A DNA stretch of 11,951 nucleotides from contig JAVZNC010000011.1 of assembly GCA_038882955.1 (NCBI GenBank), forward strand, positions 1 to 11,951. Direction: 5' to 3'. Each line of letters begins with the position of its first letter. Within the stretch, counting starts at the first letter, position 1. Under the pieces are notes generated by a model. The model saw nothing but the letters and a program-made list of their open reading frames with translations, had not been told where the DNA came from and did no database searches. Shown here one piece after another: positions 1 to 11,951 of this stretch. A program made the translations under genes and the position numbers. Source of the DNA: Candidatus Bathyarchaeia archaeon. GTDB taxonomy: Archaea; Thermoproteota; Bathyarchaeia; Bathyarchaeales; Bathycorpusculaceae.

Positions 1-539
1 TTTATGCTTCTAAAAACATTTTCCGGCTCAACGCTGTGATGAAGCATCAACGTTGAAAATGCAGCGTCAAACTCTCGTGGAATTTTGAAGAATTTTCGCG
101 CTTCGTTTATGCTGTCCTTGATGTTTTCGGCTATGCCAATGAACGGAACTATTCCAACATTCCTCTTTTCCAAAGCGGCAAGCATGGCTGGAGTTGCATC
201 CAAAGCATAAAACTGAACTTTCGGCAGTTCTTCATGGATTCGTCTACAAATAGCAGCTGTAAAGAAGCCTGTGCCAGCGCCAACATCTAAAACGTTGGCG
301 TTCGATGGAATACGTGGTTGGGCGAGCAAAAACTTGCAGATAATATCAGTTAGGCGGTTTATTCCGTCCTTTCCGAAATAGTTCAGGACAATTTTGTCTC
401 TGCTTTTCGCCTCTTTTATTGTAAAATACTTGACGGCTTTCGCTAACGATTCTGGGTTTGGAGCATTGAGTTGCCTAAACAGATGTTCAAGATTTAGCTT
501 TTCAATGTAATTTTCAAAGGTGTCCCCTTTGGCGGGCAT
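1..539 (-). CDS. Class I SAM-dependent methyltransferase, 3' end runs off the window (absent from the ORF track)
   Basis: Translated by hand from ATG at 539: MPAKGDTFENYIEKLNLEHLFRQL...NVLDVGAGTGFFT...FYALDATPAML...FDAAFSTLMLHH. Open to position 1. Motif I (LDVGAGTG), the acidic end of beta-2 (ALD) and an FDxxFS motif are present. Starts 20 nt after the arsM stop. Confidence 0.9.
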   Translation of the reverse strand, partial: MPAKGDTFENYIEKLNLEHLFRQLNAPNPESLAKAVKYFTIKEAKSRDKIVLNYFGKDGINRLTDIICKFLLAQPRIPSNANVLDVGAGTGFFTAAICRRIHEELPKVQFYALDATPAMLAALEKRNVGIVPFIGIAENIKDSINEARKFFKIPREFDAAFSTLMLHHSVEPENVFRSI

Positions 540-559
540 GTTATTAGCATAGTTTTTGT

Positions 560-1309
560 TTATTTTGATGGTTTAACCCCGCAAATTGTTATAGTTACAA
601 CCCTAAGCTTTTCAGCTGCTGGATTATCCAGTATGCTTTCAAGTGGAAAAACTGTTTCCTCAAGAACCTTTATCTCGCGGAAGCCCGCTTGCTCAATTAG
701 GCTTACGTATTTTTCCTTATTTATTGCTCCAGAAACACAGCTCACATATGCGTTTGCATCCTCTTTTATGGCGGGCGGAAGTTCATCCAAAAGTACAATA
801 TCCGAAATTATCAGTCGTCCACCAGGCTTTAGAGCTCTGAAGGCTTCTTCGAAAACTCGCTTTTTGTTTGGCGAGAGATTGATTACGCAGTTTGAAATGA
901 TAACGTCGACGCTGCAGTCAGCAACTGGAAGGTTCTCTATTTCACCGAGTCTAAACTCCGCGTTTCTATAGCCGCTTTTCCTCGCGTTTTCCCTAGCCCT
1001 ATAAACCATTTCGGGGGTCATGTCAACGCCGATTACTCTGCCAGTATCTCCAACTTTTTTGGCTGCGAGAAAACAGTCAAACCCAAAGCCAGAGCCAAGG
1101 TCAAGGACGGTTTCGCCCTCCTTCAGGGATGAAAATGCGACTGGACTTCCACAGCCAAGGCTCAAAATGTCCTCTTGAATAGTTTTTTCGGCGTCAAAAT
1201 CCGCACAAGTTTTGCAGCACCCAACACCTTGATCACAGCAGCTCTTTCGTTCTTTTGCTATTTTGGCATAGCCTTTTCTTACAATCTTCCTCACTTTTTC
1301 TTCCTTCAA
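560..1309 (-). CDS. arsM: Arsenite S-adenosylmethionine methyltransferase
   Basis: Contains ArsM signature motifs LGCGSP, VLDLGSGFGFDCFLAA, GVDMTPEM, DVIISNCVINL and SCVSGA, plus N-terminal SCC/GCC. TTG start with a GGTGG SD-like sequence upstream. Confidence 0.93.
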   Translation of the reverse strand: MKEEKVRKIVRKGYAKIAKERKSCCDQGVGCCKTCADFDAEKTIQEDILSLGCGSPVAFSSLKEGETVLDLGSGFGFDCFLAAKKVGDTGRVIGVDMTPEMVYRARENARKSGYRNAEFRLGEIENLPVADCSVDVIISNCVINLSPNKKRVFEEAFRALKPGGRLIISDIVLLDELPPAIKEDANAYVSCVSGAINKEKYVSLIEQAGFREIKVLEETVFPLESILDNPAAEKLRVVTITICGVKPSK

Positions 1310-1323
1310 ACATCAGCCACCTT

Positions 1324-1560
1324 CTACTCGAAAATTTCCTTAATTACGGGTCCGAAGTATTCTTTAACCGATTTTCCAAGTTCTTCAGCCTTAACCATAA
1401 TCATGCAACATAGAGTTTCGTCGCGTTCACAGCAAATTATAGCCAGCTTGTCGTTTGGCTTTAGGCGTGCTTTTTCCCTTAAATCTTTTGGAAGTACAAT
1501 CTGCCCCTTCGAATCAACAGTCACTATAGCATCAACTCTGCAGCATTCTTTTCCAGACAT
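1324..1560 (-). CDS. AbrB/MazE/SpoVT-fold DNA-binding protein with three Cys-Cys pairs (resembles the HgcAB-associated HgcC-type family)
   Basis: VTVDSKGQIVLPKDLREKARLKPNDKL is an AbrB swapped-hairpin signature. CC pairs lie at residues 6-7, 43-44 and 51-52. First gene of the arsM run, 14 nt before arsM. The HgcC assignment is from memory of the family, not a search. Confidence 0.82.
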   Translation of the reverse strand: MSGKECCRVDAIVTVDSKGQIVLPKDLREKARLKPNDKLAIICCERDETLCCMIMVKAEELGKSVKEYFGPVIKEIFE

Positions 1561-1593
1561 TTGACATCGTAATGCAATATACGCGTTCGCTTC

Positions 1594-1606
1594 ATTTAAA
1601 TTTTCC
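1594..1606 (-). promoter_or_regulatory. Putative BRE/TATA promoter of the AbrB-arsM-methyltransferase operon
   Basis: Minus strand reads GGAAAA-TTTAAAT, a purine-rich BRE followed by a TATA box about 35-40 nt upstream of the ATG at 1560. Confidence 0.6.
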
Positions 1607-1638
1607 GATAATTCAGAATATTCCGATAATGCTGAAAA
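1603..1638. repeat. Four imperfect tandem 9-bp units, candidate operator
   Basis: TTCCGATAA (1603-1611), TTCAGAATA (1612-1620), TTCCGATAA (1621-1629), TGCTGAAAA (1630-1638). Units 1 and 3 are identical. The array overlaps the putative BRE. Confidence 0.65.
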
Positions 1639-1653
1639 GAGTTTTTTGTTATA

Positions 1654-1727
1654 AGCCTCGGGCGGGCTTTGAACCCGCGACCTGCGGTTTACGAGACCGC
1701 CGCTCTACCAGGCTGAGCTACCGAGGC
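1654..1727 (-). tRNA. tRNA-Thr(CGT), no intron, CCA not encoded
   Basis: Folded by hand: acceptor GCCTCGG/CCGAGGC, D arm GCTC/GAGC, anticodon arm GCGGT-CTCGTAA-ACCGC, T arm GCGGG-TTCAAAG-CCCGC, discriminator T. Confidence 0.97.
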
Positions 1728-1800
1728 TTGCGTGTTCTTTAAATATGTGATTGAAAGCCTATTTTTAAGATGTTCGGAAAGGTTTGGGAGTGAAGCTGTC

Positions 1801-6581: not shown

Positions 6582-7958
6582 TTAATGAATCATCAGTCTC
6601 TCCTCATACTTTCTCAAGTATTCTGCTGCCTCGCCTATATCCATGAACAAATCATCAACACGCTCAACATCTTCAATCGTAACTTTACTCCTTTTGGCTG
6701 CTCTTGCATTTTGAGATGCAAGGCTTAACAGCTGAACAGCATAGCGCAATGAACTTTTAGCGCCTACCTCTGCAAGCCTTTCTAGGGCTTTGTCGTCGAG
6801 CTTTATTTTCTCCTCTTCAGAACGTATTCGCAGTATCTCCTTCACGCTTTCCACGTCGTATGGTTGTGTTGCGATTATCACAGAGCGGTCTATGAGGTCT
6901 ATTGGGAAGCCAAGTGGACTTTTTACGTCTGTTCCGCGGATTCTGGCTACGCCCCTATTAGTTGCAAGGATAACTATTGGAACAAGCTCGCTTTCCATAG
7001 CTCTGCCCAAAAAGCTGAAAGCCTCCAAATCCAAAAGATGCGAATCATCAATGAAGAGCACGCCTGGATGGATGAAAGCCTTTCCAGAATCCACCCACTC
7101 CTTGACCTGCTGGTCCACAGCCATACGCACTTCAGTGTCGATTTCCTTCGACTCTGAACCGCCAAAGAACAGCGAGAAGAATCCGCCTGAACGTTGCCTA
7201 GCGTTAAGCTCATCCAAATCATTAAGCGTCAACGTATAAACAAACTCTTTCTCTTTCAAAACCTTACCGTTTGGTCTTGGAACCTTCCGTGTAGTGTCAA
7301 CGTCATACGTTTTTCCCTTTGTGCTTTCTAGGCTTAACCCTAAACTTGCAACTCTACCAGTCTCAGCGTCTATCTGTATCACGTAGCCTTCTGAAACGCC
7401 CTCCGCGATAATCTGCTGGGCTATTGAAGGACCAGCCTCTATGGTTTTCTCCTCATCTGTCGTCCTCAAAGTCAACCTAACACTTTCTGGAACCTTCTGG
7501 TACGGATTGTATGGGTGCGGCGCAGTTTTTATGTCAACATGCGTAAGCTCGCCTTCGTATACTTTGCGCATTTCATGTATCTCAACGCCTATGCACTTGC
7601 GAATAGCTTCAACAAGAACCTCGGTTTTCTTACGCTCAGCACTGTAAATTTCGCTACCGCTCATTTGTATAAACGGCACGTTTTCGCCTAGTTCTCGCGA
7701 TATAGCCACGGCTATAGCTGTTTTTCCAGTTCCAGGCGGACCAGCCAAAATTATACATTTTCCGCTCAATTTCCCTTCCTTAATCATCTTCACAACCAAG
7801 CCAGCAGCTTCTCTAGCCTTTTCCTGTCCAACCATGCCGTCCTTTATCTTCACAGCCCTCAAATTCTCATCTAAGCCTAATCCCTTAATGTGCGTGTGAG
7901 CCCCTATCCGCTCAAATCTGCTTACACCGCCCGCGGGAATTTCCCTTATAGACGCCAT
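6582..7958 (-). CDS. tip49: TIP49 / RuvB-like AAA+ ATPase (TBP-interacting protein, Rvb1/Rvb2 homologue)
   Basis: N-terminal HTHIKGLGLD, GMVGQEKAREAAG, Walker A GPPGTGKT, Walker B VLFIDDSH, sensor ATNRG and SLRYAVQLL. SD GGGGTGA upstream. Confidence 0.96.
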   Translation of the reverse strand: MASIREIPAGGVSRFERIGAHTHIKGLGLDENLRAVKIKDGMVGQEKAREAAGLVVKMIKEGKLSGKCIILAGPPGTGKTAIAVAISRELGENVPFIQMSGSEIYSAERKKTEVLVEAIRKCIGVEIHEMRKVYEGELTHVDIKTAPHPYNPYQKVPESVRLTLRTTDEEKTIEAGPSIAQQIIAEGVSEGYVIQIDAETGRVASLGLSLESTKGKTYDVDTTRKVPRPNGKVLKEKEFVYTLTLNDLDELNARQRSGGFFSLFFGGSESKEIDTEVRMAVDQQVKEWVDSGKAFIHPGVLFIDDSHLLDLEAFSFLGRAMESELVPIVILATNRGVARIRGTDVKSPLGFPIDLIDRSVIIATQPYDVESVKEILRIRSEEEKIKLDDKALERLAEVGAKSSLRYAVQLLSLASQNARAAKRSKVTIEDVERVDDLFMDIGEAAEYLRKYEERLMIH

Positions 7959-10054: not shown

Positions 10055-10128
10055 AGCCTCGGGCGGGCTTTGATCCCGCGACCTACGGCTTACAAGGCCG
10101 TTGCTCTACCAGGCTGAGCTACCGAGGC
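10055..10128 (-). tRNA. tRNA-Thr(TGT), no intron, CCA not encoded, T-loop ATCAAAG
   Basis: Acceptor GCCTCGG/CCGAGGC, D arm GCTC/GAGC, anticodon arm ACGGC-CTTGTAA-GCCGT, T arm GCGGG-ATCAAAG-CCCGC. Confidence 0.96.
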
Positions 10129-10392: not shown

Positions 10393-10432
10393 CATCAAAG
10401 GTTCACCAAACGCCAAACAGACACCACTAAAA

Positions 10433-11951
<1,519 letters not shown>

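What the first reader, a model, noticed from the sequence alone, without database searches (positions are those of the whole stretch)
1..1638. arsM operon headed by a triple-CysCys AbrB-fold protein instead of ArsR: candidate new As(III)/soft-metal sensing switch
Seen: three tightly spaced co-oriented genes (gaps of 14 and 20 nt), namely a 78-aa AbrB-fold protein with CC at residues 6-7, 43-44 and 51-52, arsM and a second SAM methyltransferase. No ArsR gene appears in the window. Established: arsM is usually controlled by ArsR/SmtB repressors, As(III) binds vicinal thiols, and AbrB folds bind DNA as dimers or oligomers. From memory, similar CC-bearing AbrB proteins are annotated as HgcAB-associated, next to mercury methylation genes. 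Inference: this family may be a thiol-based metalloid sensor shared by As and Hg methylation loci. I know of no characterisation of it.
Basis: partly seen in the sequence, partly recalled or inferred. Interest (0 to 1): 0.78.

Follow-up and report, generated by a model that had tools for sequence, protein, structure and literature searches.

The report
Cysteine-pair AbrB-type switch heading arsM
A tiny cysteine-studded DNA-binding protein sits in front of an arsenic-methylating gene in this archaeon, and its relatives precede arsenic- or mercury-methylation genes behind the same repeated DNA motif, so it is probably an untested kind of metal(loid)-sensing on/off switch.

Summary
On the minus strand lie a 78-aa AbrB/SpoVT-fold protein (1324-1560) with Cys-Cys at residues 6-7, 43-44 and 51-52, then arsM (560-1309, 14-nt gap), then a second methyltransferase (3-539, 20-nt gap) cut by the contig end. 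The small protein belongs to NCBIfam NF040962, 'HgcAB-associated protein HgcC' (100.8 bits, cut-off 70). The genome has no hgcA.

Of 160 related loci, arsM follows the small gene in 136 and hgcA in 15; 9 are undetermined. CC 6-7 and CC 51-52 are the family pattern. The 43-44 pair occurs only in this lineage.

The promoter carries TCNGA boxes at 9-nt steps around the TATA box. The motif recurs in 81 archaeal loci and in bacterial-looking arsM and hgcAB loci. It also recurs before cysteine-free paralogues that head ABC exporters.

Best reading: an autoregulated repressor on an AbrB fold that senses As(III), or a soft metal, through its cysteines. DNA binding and sensing are inferred, not shown.

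A 2023 paper noted this gene upstream of hgcA as a putative regulator. I found nothing in print on the arsM link, the cysteines or the operator. At least 15 earlier notes of this scan reach the same reading.

The parts
1324..1560 (-). hgcC-family gene: a 78-aa SpoVT/AbrB-fold protein with Cys 6, 7, 43, 44, 51 and 52. It is the putative autoregulated metal(loid)-sensing repressor.
   Evidence: ORF. PF04014 at 33.7 bits against 24.7. NF040962 at 100.8 bits against 70 and TIGR01439 at 41.8 bits. Best Foldseek rows are SpoVT, AbrB-N and Sso7c4, all weak with E of 0.04 or more. The homodimer model scores 0.46 against 0.00 for the best of 3 controls.
1604..1626 (-). Putative operator: three TCNGA boxes at 9-nt steps (plus-strand 1604-1608, 1613-1617, 1622-1626), directly upstream of the TATA box as read along the gene's strand.
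   Evidence: Sequence. This is the only promoter-located match to TTCNGA-N4-TCNGAA among 3 such sites in the 1.54-Mb genome. The same array is conserved in relatives.
1594..1601 (-). TATA-box-like element (ATTTAAAT), 34 nt upstream of the start codon.
   Evidence: Sequence. A TATA core could be anchored at the equivalent place in 76 of 81 related upstream regions. Its function as a promoter element is inferred.
1586..1593 (-). The place where relatives carry a further TTCTGA box just downstream of the TATA box. It is degenerate in this window.
   Evidence: Comparison of the window with the anchored consensus.
560..1309 (-). arsM, arsenite S-adenosylmethionine methyltransferase, 249 aa with a TTG start.
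   Evidence: NF008823 at 310.9 bits against a cut-off of 263, and PF13847 at 150 bits. A homologue of this gene follows the small gene in 136 of 160 related loci.
3..539 (-). Second class I SAM methyltransferase. It is truncated by the contig end and is an accessory gene.
   Evidence: Generic methyltransferase Pfam hits only. A full-length copy of 253 aa is in L005. A homologue follows arsM in only 3 of 80 genome loci: L005, L039 and L071.

Best explanation
The 78-aa protein is a member of the uncharacterised family NF040962, named 'HgcC'. It most likely acts as a small dimeric SpoVT/AbrB-fold transcription factor that represses its own operon (hgcC-arsM-methyltransferase). It would do so by occupying an array of TCNGA boxes, spaced 9 nt apart, that abuts and flanks the TATA box. 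Its cysteines (CC 6-7, C43/C44, CC 51-52) lie in or beside the predicted dimer interface. They would bind As(III), or Hg(II) or another thiophilic species in hgcAB-linked relatives, which would loosen the protein from DNA and switch on arsenic methylation.

Shown here: family membership, gene order, conservation of the cysteines, and conservation and placement of the DNA motif. Inferred: DNA binding, the direction of control (repression), and thiol-based sensing with As(III) as the ligand.
For: Family and fold. NF040962 scores 100.8 bits against 70. The AbrB domain is detected. PDB profile hits are SpoVT, archaeal AbrB-family regulators and MraZ. The best Foldseek rows are SpoVT, AbrB-N, Sso7c4 and C68.

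Dimer. The model scores 0.46 against 0.00 for the best of 3 controls. The tool's calibration: 20 of 30 proteins solved as pairs and 1 of 23 solved as single chains reached the mark. Runs agree in at least 78% of contacts and the partner pLDDT is at least 63. The interface covers residues 6-23, 27-28, 30-45 and 50-58, with 54 touching 54'. AbrB dimers are solved, so this pass may only reflect likeness.

Gene order. arsM lies directly downstream in 78 of 80 genome loci; the other 2 end at a contig edge. In 80 metagenome loci it is arsM in 58, hgcA in 15 and undetermined in 7. In a sample of 201 Bathyarchaeia genomes, 32 have HgcC over the cut-off, and 23 of those are adjacent to arsM by coordinates.

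Operator. TTCNGA/TCNGAA boxes average 3.25 per upstream region in 81 regions, against 0.14 in shuffles and 0.11 in a control region further upstream. Spacings are 9 and 18 nt. The strict 16-nt form is present in 31 of 81 regions against 0.005 in shuffles. In the mostly bacterial-looking loci TCWGA averages 2.07 (hgcA-linked, n=15) and 2.09 (arsM-linked, n=55) against 0.21 in shuffles, with the same 9/18 spacing. There the boxes lie over and after the -10 element, which is a repressor position (read).

Cysteines as a sensor rather than scaffold. Six paralogues that head DrrA/DrrB-type ABC exporters have none of these cysteines, yet 4 of the 6 inspected keep the same box array at the TATA box.

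Regulator slot. In 20 Bathyarchaeia arsM loci without HgcC, the neighbouring small gene is ArsR in L193 and L196. In L187, L188, L190 and L191 it is a PadR regulator with its own Cys-pair tag.
Against: No experiment exists, and no RNA data could be found. The monomer model is only moderate (pLDDT 70.7), and no Foldseek match reached E of 0.001 or better.

Boxes directly upstream of an archaeal TATA box can also serve activators.

One hgcA-linked archaeal member (G111) keeps only CC 51-52.

One Cys-rich member (G130) sits next to rpoD, with no arsM match at E of 1e-60 or better in that genome.

Vicinal thiols could equally serve redox sensing, an Fe-S cluster, or metal hand-over to ArsM.

The genome has two ArsR genes elsewhere that might also act on arsM.

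The 160 loci are not independent samples. Many are close kin, and both sets were chosen by likeness to a query.
Confidence: 0.58

Rival explanations
1. The protein is a metallochaperone, or both chaperone and repressor as ArsD is. It would capture As(III) or Hg(II) on its vicinal thiols and hand it to ArsM or HgcAB. DNA binding would be secondary or absent.
For: Cys pairs are conserved. The gene abuts or overlaps the methyltransferase gene, with a median estimated gap of 14 nt and several 4-nt overlaps, as expected for proteins made together. From recall: ArsD carries three vicinal Cys pairs and was first described as a repressor, and HgcB ends in a Cys pair.
Against: The conserved part of the protein is a DNA-binding fold. 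A sequence-specific box array is conserved in its own promoter across archaea and mostly bacterial-looking loci. Cys-free paralogues keep that array. No ArsD-like family matched the protein: Pfam returned only MazE_antitoxin and MraZ at E of 0.01 or better.
Confidence: 0.15
2. The protein is a DNA-binding regulator, but its cysteines sense redox state or oxygen, through a thiol-disulfide switch or an Fe-S cluster, rather than a metal(loid). It would restrict As/Hg methylation to anoxic conditions.
For: There are four to six cysteines per chain at a predicted dimer interface. The hosts appear to be anaerobes; the genome encodes the CdhD/CdhE acetyl-CoA synthase subunits. Nothing here distinguishes the ligand.
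Against: Presence of the cysteines tracks operons that act on thiophilic As and Hg. They are absent in exporter-linked paralogues. Other arsM-linked regulators in the same slot are ArsR, or PadR with a similar Cys-pair tag. From recall: CC-plus-C patterns are what ArsR-type As(III) sites use.
Confidence: 0.12
3. The gene is a type II antitoxin (MazE/PrlF-like) of a toxin-antitoxin module that merely happens to lie near methylation genes. This is how KEGG, Pfam and IMG label it.
For: Pfam's best hit is named MazE_antitoxin. JGI names for homologues include 'antitoxin PrlF'. PMC10349881 discusses it as a TA-associated gene.
Against: The gene that follows is arsM or hgcA in 151 of 160 loci, not a toxin. 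No systematic toxin search was run beyond this.
Confidence: 0.03

Closest known systems
NCBIfam NF040962 'HgcAB-associated protein HgcC' (near_HgcAB). This is the prlF/mazE/abrB-like gene directly upstream of hgcA that PMC10349881 proposed as a putative archaeal hgcAB regulator.
   Same: It is the same family by HMM: 100.8 bits against a cut-off of 70. Size and AbrB domain match. hgcA-linked members were found here too: 15 metagenome loci, and G111 with hgcC-hgcA-hgcB.
   Different: This genome has no hgcA: the best match to NF040863 is 87.6 bits against 275 and is CdhD. In the loci examined the family precedes arsM about nine times as often as hgcA, so the name describes a minority context. 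The passages of the paper that I read mention neither the cysteines, nor an operator, nor an arsM link. Its supplementary tables were not opened.
AbrB / SpoVT / MraZ / Sso7c4 swapped-hairpin DNA-binding proteins
   Same: The N-terminal fold and predicted dimer are alike. Binding to phased direct repeats, as MraZ does (recalled), resembles the 9-nt box array.
   Different: From recall, none of these is known to sense a metal(loid), and none carries the conserved Cys pairs. The C-terminal two helices (residues 58-77) have no match.
ArsR/SmtB As(III)-responsive repressors, the usual arsM/ars regulators
   Same: The proposed logic is the same: a small autoregulated repressor at the head of the operon, released by As(III) bound to three thiols. 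ArsR occupies the equivalent position at arsM in other Bathyarchaeia (L096, L193). From recall, some ArsR As(III) sites use a vicinal CC plus a third Cys.
   Different: The fold is unrelated: there is no HTH_5 hit. The operator differs. In this genome ArsR is instead encoded beside thioredoxin-like and ArsP permease genes.
ArsD (arsenic metallochaperone and weak repressor)
   Same: Several vicinal Cys pairs in a small ars-operon protein (recalled).
   Different: No sequence or fold relation was detected.

Membership tests
NCBIfam NF040962 HgcC (near_HgcAB) | Whole-protein HMM score at or above the curated cut-off of 70 bits | tested here: met
   100.8 bits, residues 6-75 on profile positions 1-70. 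The genome search gave 99.9 bits.
NCBIfam NF040962 HgcC (near_HgcAB) | Genomic association with hgcAB, as the family name implies | tested here: not met
   No HgcA over the cut-off in the genome, which is 95.6% complete: best 87.6 bits against 275. The downstream gene is arsM.
SpoVT/AbrB (PF04014, TIGR01439) DNA-binding domain | Domain HMM over its cut-off | tested here: met
   PF04014 at 33.7 bits against 24.7. TIGR01439 at 41.8 bits against 28.3.
SpoVT/AbrB (PF04014, TIGR01439) DNA-binding domain | Swapped-hairpin dimer fold | tested here: inconclusive
   The monomer model has pLDDT 70.7. The top Foldseek rows are SpoVT, AbrB and Sso7c4, but with E of 0.04 or more. The dimer model scores 0.46 against 0.00 for the best control, with strand 11-15 pairing with 37-41 of the other chain. 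This may reflect likeness to solved AbrB dimers.
SpoVT/AbrB (PF04014, TIGR01439) DNA-binding domain | Sequence-specific DNA binding | not testable with these tools
   Only indirect evidence: a conserved TCNGA array in the family's own promoters.
Type II antitoxin (MazE/PrlF) | Cognate toxin gene encoded next to it | tested here: not met
   The downstream gene is arsM here, and arsM or hgcA in 151 of 160 related loci.
ArsR/SmtB metalloregulator | Winged-helix HTH_5 domain | tested here: not met
   The Pfam and NCBIfam scans of the 78-aa protein give no ArsR-family hit.
ArsD metallochaperone | ArsD family domain | tested here: not met
   The Pfam scan at E of 0.01 or better returned only MazE_antitoxin and MraZ.
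ArsM (the second gene) | NF008823 score over its cut-off of 263 bits | tested here: met
   310.9 bits.
ArsM (the second gene) | Conserved As(III)-binding cysteines | tested here: inconclusive
   Cysteines are seen in GCG, NCV and SCV contexts, plus an N-terminal Cys cluster, in the translation. Equating them with the catalytic cysteines of characterised ArsM rests on recall; no alignment to a solved ArsM was made.

The most novel reading that the evidence does not exclude
The 'HgcC' family is a new structural class of metal(loid)-responsive repressor: an AbrB-fold protein that reads As(III), and perhaps Hg(II), through interface Cys pairs and binds phased TCNGA boxes. Its main job in nature would be to control arsenic methylation in anaerobic archaea and bacteria, with hgcAB recruited to the same switch at least twice. 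That would tie the long-unexplained regulation of mercury methylation to arsenic sensing. Cys-free paralogues would show the same DNA-binding chassis re-fitted for other signals.
Probability: 0.5. Interest if true: 0.8.

Novelty: new variant of a known kind. Interest (0 to 1): 0.68.

Why it matters
What controls microbial arsenic methylation in anoxic soils and sediments, and mercury methylation by hgcAB, is poorly known. From recall, the recognised metal-sensor families do not include an AbrB fold.

If this family is the switch, it offers three things:
- a defined protein, a defined DNA motif and defined cysteines to test;
- a marker for predicting when arsM or hgcAB are expressed in paddy soils, peat, hot springs and sediments;
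- a candidate part for arsenic biosensors.

It also shows that the database name 'HgcAB-associated' misleads, because most members examined here sit with arsM.

Tried and rejected
- Literature search for 'HgcC': 242 papers hold the string, and none of the 15 listed concerns this protein. 'HgcAB-associated': 0 papers. 'arsM'+'AbrB': 3 papers. I checked passages in two. The preprint mentions an unrelated AbrB regulator, and PMC10349881 does not link the two terms. I saw the third (PMC4307280) only in the listing. 'hgcA'+'PrlF' and 'hgcA'+'AbrB' find only PMC10349881. 'Bathyarchaeota'+'arsM': 10 papers, 9 listed, seen in the listing only.
- Sequencing runs: no RNA holder is listed for window 1-1750, so no read on expression or a transcript start was possible.
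- Foldseek against PDB: no match at E of 0.001 or better. The VIA-align libraries were not tried.
- Regulon search: the strict 16-nt operator form occurs at 3 sites in the genome. The two outside the window (C2:166041, C3:67402) have no TATA-like context and look like coding sequence. No PWM scan was made.
- Toxin-antitoxin reading: rejected on gene order.
- 'Triple CC' as a family trait: rejected.
The analysis was redone from stored files.
- A tree of 159 family members has only 78 columns and many unresolved forks. It supports no more than this: the hgcA-linked members are not one clade (4 changes, 2 forced by well-supported branches), and the ABC-linked ones are one group (support 99).
Full report
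**1. What is in the window**

The window is the first 11,951 bases of contig C11 of a 1.54-Mb archaeal genome bin (95.6% complete, 6.1% contamination). The closest public relative is a contig labelled Candidatus Bathyarchaeia (L005), whose small protein is 92% identical.

On the minus strand, in order, lie:
- tRNA-Thr(CGU) at 1653-1728;
- a 78-aa ORF at 1324-1560;
- a 249-aa ORF at 560-1309;
- an ORF at 3-539 that runs off the contig.

The intergenic gaps are 14 and 20 nt. The 78-aa protein has Cys-Cys at 6-7, 43-44 and 51-52.

**2. Identities**

- The small protein matches Pfam PF04014 (the SpoVT/AbrB domain, named MazE_antitoxin) at 33.7 bits against 24.7.
- It matches NCBIfam TIGR01439 (AbrB family) at 41.8 bits, and the equivalog NF040962, 'HgcAB-associated protein HgcC', at 100.8 bits against a cut-off of 70.
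- The second gene is ArsM: NF008823, 310.9 bits against 263.
- The third gene is a generic class I methyltransferase. A full-length 253-aa copy exists in L005, followed there by an unknown 234-aa gene and ribose-5-phosphate isomerase.
- A homologue of the third gene follows arsM in only 3 of 80 related genome loci. It is an accessory; the conserved unit is the pair hgcC-arsM.

**3. The genome has no mercury-methylation genes**

- HgcA (NF040863, cut-off 275 bits) scores at best 87.6 bits, on the CdhD gene of contig C3.
- The genome has two ArsR/SmtB genes over the cut-off, each beside a thioredoxin-like gene and an ArsP-type permease.
- No Acr3 was found.
- So ArsR exists in this organism but is encoded at permease loci, while arsM is headed by the AbrB-fold protein.

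**4. Relatives and their cysteines**

- A word-indexed search found 530 proteins at E of 0.001 or better. The 120 listed are 62-92% identical to the query, and some carry the NCBI name 'HgcAB-associated protein' or JGI names such as 'antitoxin PrlF'.
- Of these 120, 113 have two CC pairs, 5 have one and 2 have three.
- In an alignment of 27 of them, C6, C7 and C52 are invariant and C51 is at least 90% conserved. K18, G19, Q20, P24, K25, R28 and K38 of the AbrB domain are also invariant.
- An exhaustive profile search of 1.84 billion representatives gave 520 proteins at E of 0.001 or better and 267 at 1e-10 or better.
- Among the best 150 plus the window (151 rows):

| Feature | Rows of 151 |
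|---|---|
| CC 51-52 | 110 |
| At least C52 | 136 |
| CC 6-7 | 79 |
| C44 | 32 |
| C43 | 5 |

- Many members carry further cysteines in an N-terminal extension.
- The middle pair is therefore a lineage feature of the window and its closest kin. The family pattern is an N-terminal CC plus CC 51-52.

**5. Neighbourhoods**

| Set | Loci | arsM next | hgcA next | Undetermined |
|---|---|---|---|---|
| Species-representative genomes | 80 | 78 | 0 | 2 (contig ends) |
| Metagenome contigs, seeded with a more distant subgroup (alignment A2) | 80 | 58 | 15 | 7 |

- Of the 80 genome loci, 76 are labelled Bathyarchaeia, Bathyarchaeota or Bathyarchaeales, 2 Nitrososphaeria and 2 bacterial. The arsM homologues there are 49-81% identical.
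- In the metagenome set, 57 of the 58 arsM genes start within 600 nt and one at 919 nt. The hgcA genes are mostly followed by an hgcB-like gene. Six of the 7 undetermined loci end within 300 nt.
- Most loci of that set have bacterial-looking promoters, with TTGACA and a GGAGG before the start; a few carry a TATA box (read). No taxonomy is available for them.
- In the metagenome set, the arsM-linked and hgcA-linked proteins have nearly the same cysteine pattern: CC..CC in 53 of 58 and 8 of 15, and .C..CC in 1 of 58 and 7 of 15.
- A tree of 159 members (78 columns, poorly resolved) needs 4 changes for the hgcA label, 2 of them forced by well-supported branches. The hgcAB link therefore arose more than once.

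**6. An even sample of the class**

- In 201 Bathyarchaeia genomes, HgcC is over its cut-off in 32, ArsM in 97 and HgcA in 4.
- By coordinates, 23 of the 32 HgcC genes abut arsM.
- One (G111) heads hgcA-hgcB.
- Six (G009, G027, G033, G045, G051, G006; 72-88 bits) head a DrrA/DrrB-type ABC-2 exporter. Family scans cover three of them, and BLAST at 71-78% identity covers the others.
- One (G130) lies next to rpoD. One (G007) precedes an unknown gene and an MTHFR-like gene.
- The exporter-linked proteins have none of the family's cysteines and carry histidines near position 44. G111 keeps only CC 51-52. G130 is extra Cys-rich.
- So the cysteines are dispensable for the fold, and their presence follows the operons that act on As and Hg.

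**7. A conserved operator**

- Upstream regions of the window and the 80 genome loci share one architecture.
- Anchored on the TATA box, which was possible for 76 of 81 regions, it reads: three TTTTCNGA units at 9-nt steps, then the TATA box, then a further TTCTGA.
- TTCNGA/TCNGAA boxes average 3.25 per region (-110 to -30). Shuffles give 0.14 and the region further upstream gives 0.11. Of the 81 regions, 69 have two or more boxes and 58 have three or more.
- Box-to-box distances are 9 nt (61 cases) and 18 nt (45 cases).
- The strict form TTCNGA-N4-TCNGAA is present in 31 of 81 regions against 0.005 in shuffles.
- In the window the boxes are at 1604-1608, 1613-1617 and 1622-1626, and the TATA-like element is at 1594-1601. 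The TATA-proximal downstream box is degenerate here.
- In the mostly bacterial-looking loci the same TCWGA boxes, with the same 9/18-nt spacing, lie over and after the -10 element. This holds for hgcA-linked loci (mean 2.07, n=15) and arsM-linked loci (2.09, n=55), against 0.21 in shuffles.
- The array also precedes G111's hgcC-hgcAB, G130's gene, and 4 of the 6 Cys-free exporter-linked paralogues that were inspected, in GC-rich surroundings.
- A DNA motif that stays with a DNA-binding-fold protein across domains, operon types and base composition is best explained as that protein's own binding site. Its placement across the core promoter argues for repression. In archaea alone an activator could not be excluded.

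**8. Structure**

- The AlphaFold monomer is moderate (pLDDT 70.7). It shows a helix at 25-31, strands at 39-46 and 49-57, and two C-terminal helices.
- The best Foldseek rows are SpoVT, the AbrB N-domain, Sso7c4 and C68, all weak with E of 0.04 or more. The PDB profile search agrees.
- A two-copy prediction scores 0.46 against 0.00 for the best of 3 controls. The tool's calibration: 20 of 30 proteins solved as pairs and 1 of 23 solved as single chains reached the mark. Runs agree in at least 78% of contacts and pLDDT is at least 63.
- The interface covers residues 6-23, 27-28, 30-45 and 50-58. Strand 11-15 pairs with 37-41 of the other chain, and residue 54 touches 54'.
- This is the swapped-hairpin arrangement of solved AbrB dimers, so the pass may only reflect that likeness.
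- It places all three Cys positions in or next to the interface. Ligand binding there could plausibly change DNA-binding geometry. This last step is inference.

**9. The regulator slot at arsM**

I examined 20 Bathyarchaeia arsM loci without HgcC.
- The adjacent small gene is ArsR in L193 (same strand) and L196 (divergent). ArsR lies further off in L180 and L186.
- In L187, L188, L190 and L191 it is a divergent PadR-family regulator carrying an N-terminal Cys-pair tag (ECCPExPxCCD).
- In L195 it is a 120-aa protein with ECCPE and no Pfam hit.
- The other loci show ArsP, an Acr3-like SBF transporter, OsmC, DGC, an AhpD-like protein, a low-molecular-weight phosphatase or another methyltransferase.
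- G038 has arsR-arsM and hgcAB within 6 kb.
- So HgcC sits where regulators sit. Cys-pair tags recur on unrelated DNA-binding folds next to arsM, which is what a modular As(III)-sensing element would look like.

**10. Mechanism proposed**

A dimer, or a dimer of dimers joined through the C-terminal helices, binds the phased boxes around the TATA box. This blocks assembly of the transcription machinery and keeps hgcC-arsM low. As(III) binds a thiol site built from CC 51-52 with C44 and/or CC 6-7 and releases the protein. ArsM is then made.

My confidence by step:

| Step | Confidence |
|---|---|
| DNA-binding autoregulator | about 0.85 |
| Repressor | about 0.7 |
| Thiol-based sensing of As(III) or a soft metal | about 0.55 |

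Rivals are a chaperone role, a redox or Fe-S sensor, and a toxin-antitoxin remnant. The last is contradicted by gene order.

**11. What is known**

- NF040962 names the family but describes no function.
- PMC10349881 (passages read) reports a prlF/mazE/abrB-like gene directly upstream of hgcA in 14 hgcAB contigs and in 8 of 31 confirmed methylators, 6 of them archaeal. It suggests it as a putative regulator and discusses it as a toxin-antitoxin gene. Those passages link it neither to the cysteines, nor to an operator, nor to arsM. Its supplements were not opened.
- The same passages state that an ArsR-like regulator controls hgcAB in Pseudodesulfovibrio mercurii ND132 and that arsenic changes hgcAB transcription. 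If so, both regulators proposed for hgcAB belong to families that also sit with arsM, which fits the present reading.
- Searches for 'HgcC', 'HgcAB-associated', arsM+AbrB, hgcA+PrlF and hgcA+AbrB found nothing further.
- Within this scan, at least 15 earlier AI notes on other genomes describe the same family and reach the same reading. They are not independent evidence. The gene-order and motif claims they make were re-derived here.

**12. Verdict**

The family is already named and was already flagged once as a putative hgcAB regulator.

As far as my searches show, these points are not in print:
- its dominant link to arsM;
- cysteine pairs that track the As and Hg operons;
- the conserved TCNGA operator;
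- the Cys-free exporter-linked paralogues on the same DNA-binding chassis.

I rate it a new variant of a known kind: a metal(loid)-responsive repressor on a fold not used by the recognised sensor families. Interest 0.68.

Noticed in passing
L187:1074-1415(-), L188:1068-1418(-), L190:1087-1479(-), L191:1898-2239(+); also L195:1792-2154(-): PadR-family regulators (PF03551, 45-46 bits) with an N-terminal Cys-pair tag (ECCPExPxCCD) lie divergently beside arsM in 4 of 20 Bathyarchaeia arsM loci that lack HgcC. L195 has a 120-aa same-strand protein with ECCPE and no Pfam hit. This may be a second, unrelated fold carrying a vicinal-cysteine arsenic sensor.
   Followed up: partly
L089:4977-5240(+), L091:4956-5249(-), L092:4947-5246(+), L095:4980-5231(-), plus L090 and L093: Cys-free HgcC-family paralogues (72-88 bits on NF040962, with histidines near position 44) head DrrA/DrrB-type ABC-2 exporter operons in six Bathyarchaeia genomes. 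The four whose upstream regions were inspected (L089, L091, L092, L095) keep the same TCNGA array abutting the TATA box. Their signal is unknown.
   Followed up: partly
G000:C9:23693-25425 and G000:C4:72914-75678 (L197, L198): The window's genome has two loci with ArsR, a thioredoxin-like protein and an ArsP-type permease. It has no Acr3 and no hgcA. Arsenic handling here may therefore be methylation plus ArsP-type efflux, with two different regulator types.
   Followed up: partly
L175:2550-5050: A metagenome contig carries hgcA-like and hgcB-like genes directly upstream of hgcC-arsM, so the two methylation systems are joined at one switch.
   Followed up: no
L096 (G038:C24:5000-15500): One Bathyarchaeia genome has arsR-arsM, hgcA-hgcB and a Cys-free, operator-less HgcC-like gene (69 bits, just under the cut-off) within about 6 kb.
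   Followed up: partly
L024 and L080: Contigs from bins labelled Krumholzibacteriaceae and Sulfotelmatobacter carry hgcC-arsM with the archaeal-type TATA promoter. They are 64% and 57% identical to the window's protein. They may be mis-binned archaeal contigs or transfers.
   Followed up: no
window 6582-7958(-): A TIP49/RuvB-like AAA+ protein (PF06068, 458 bits) is encoded in this archaeal window.
   Followed up: no
window 10432-11951(+), 10055-10128(-): The large-subunit rRNA gene begins at 10432 and runs off the window end. A tRNA-Thr(UGU) lies on the other strand about 300 nt upstream of it. No small-subunit rRNA gene lies in the roughly 10 kb before it, so the rRNA genes may be unlinked.
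   Followed up: no
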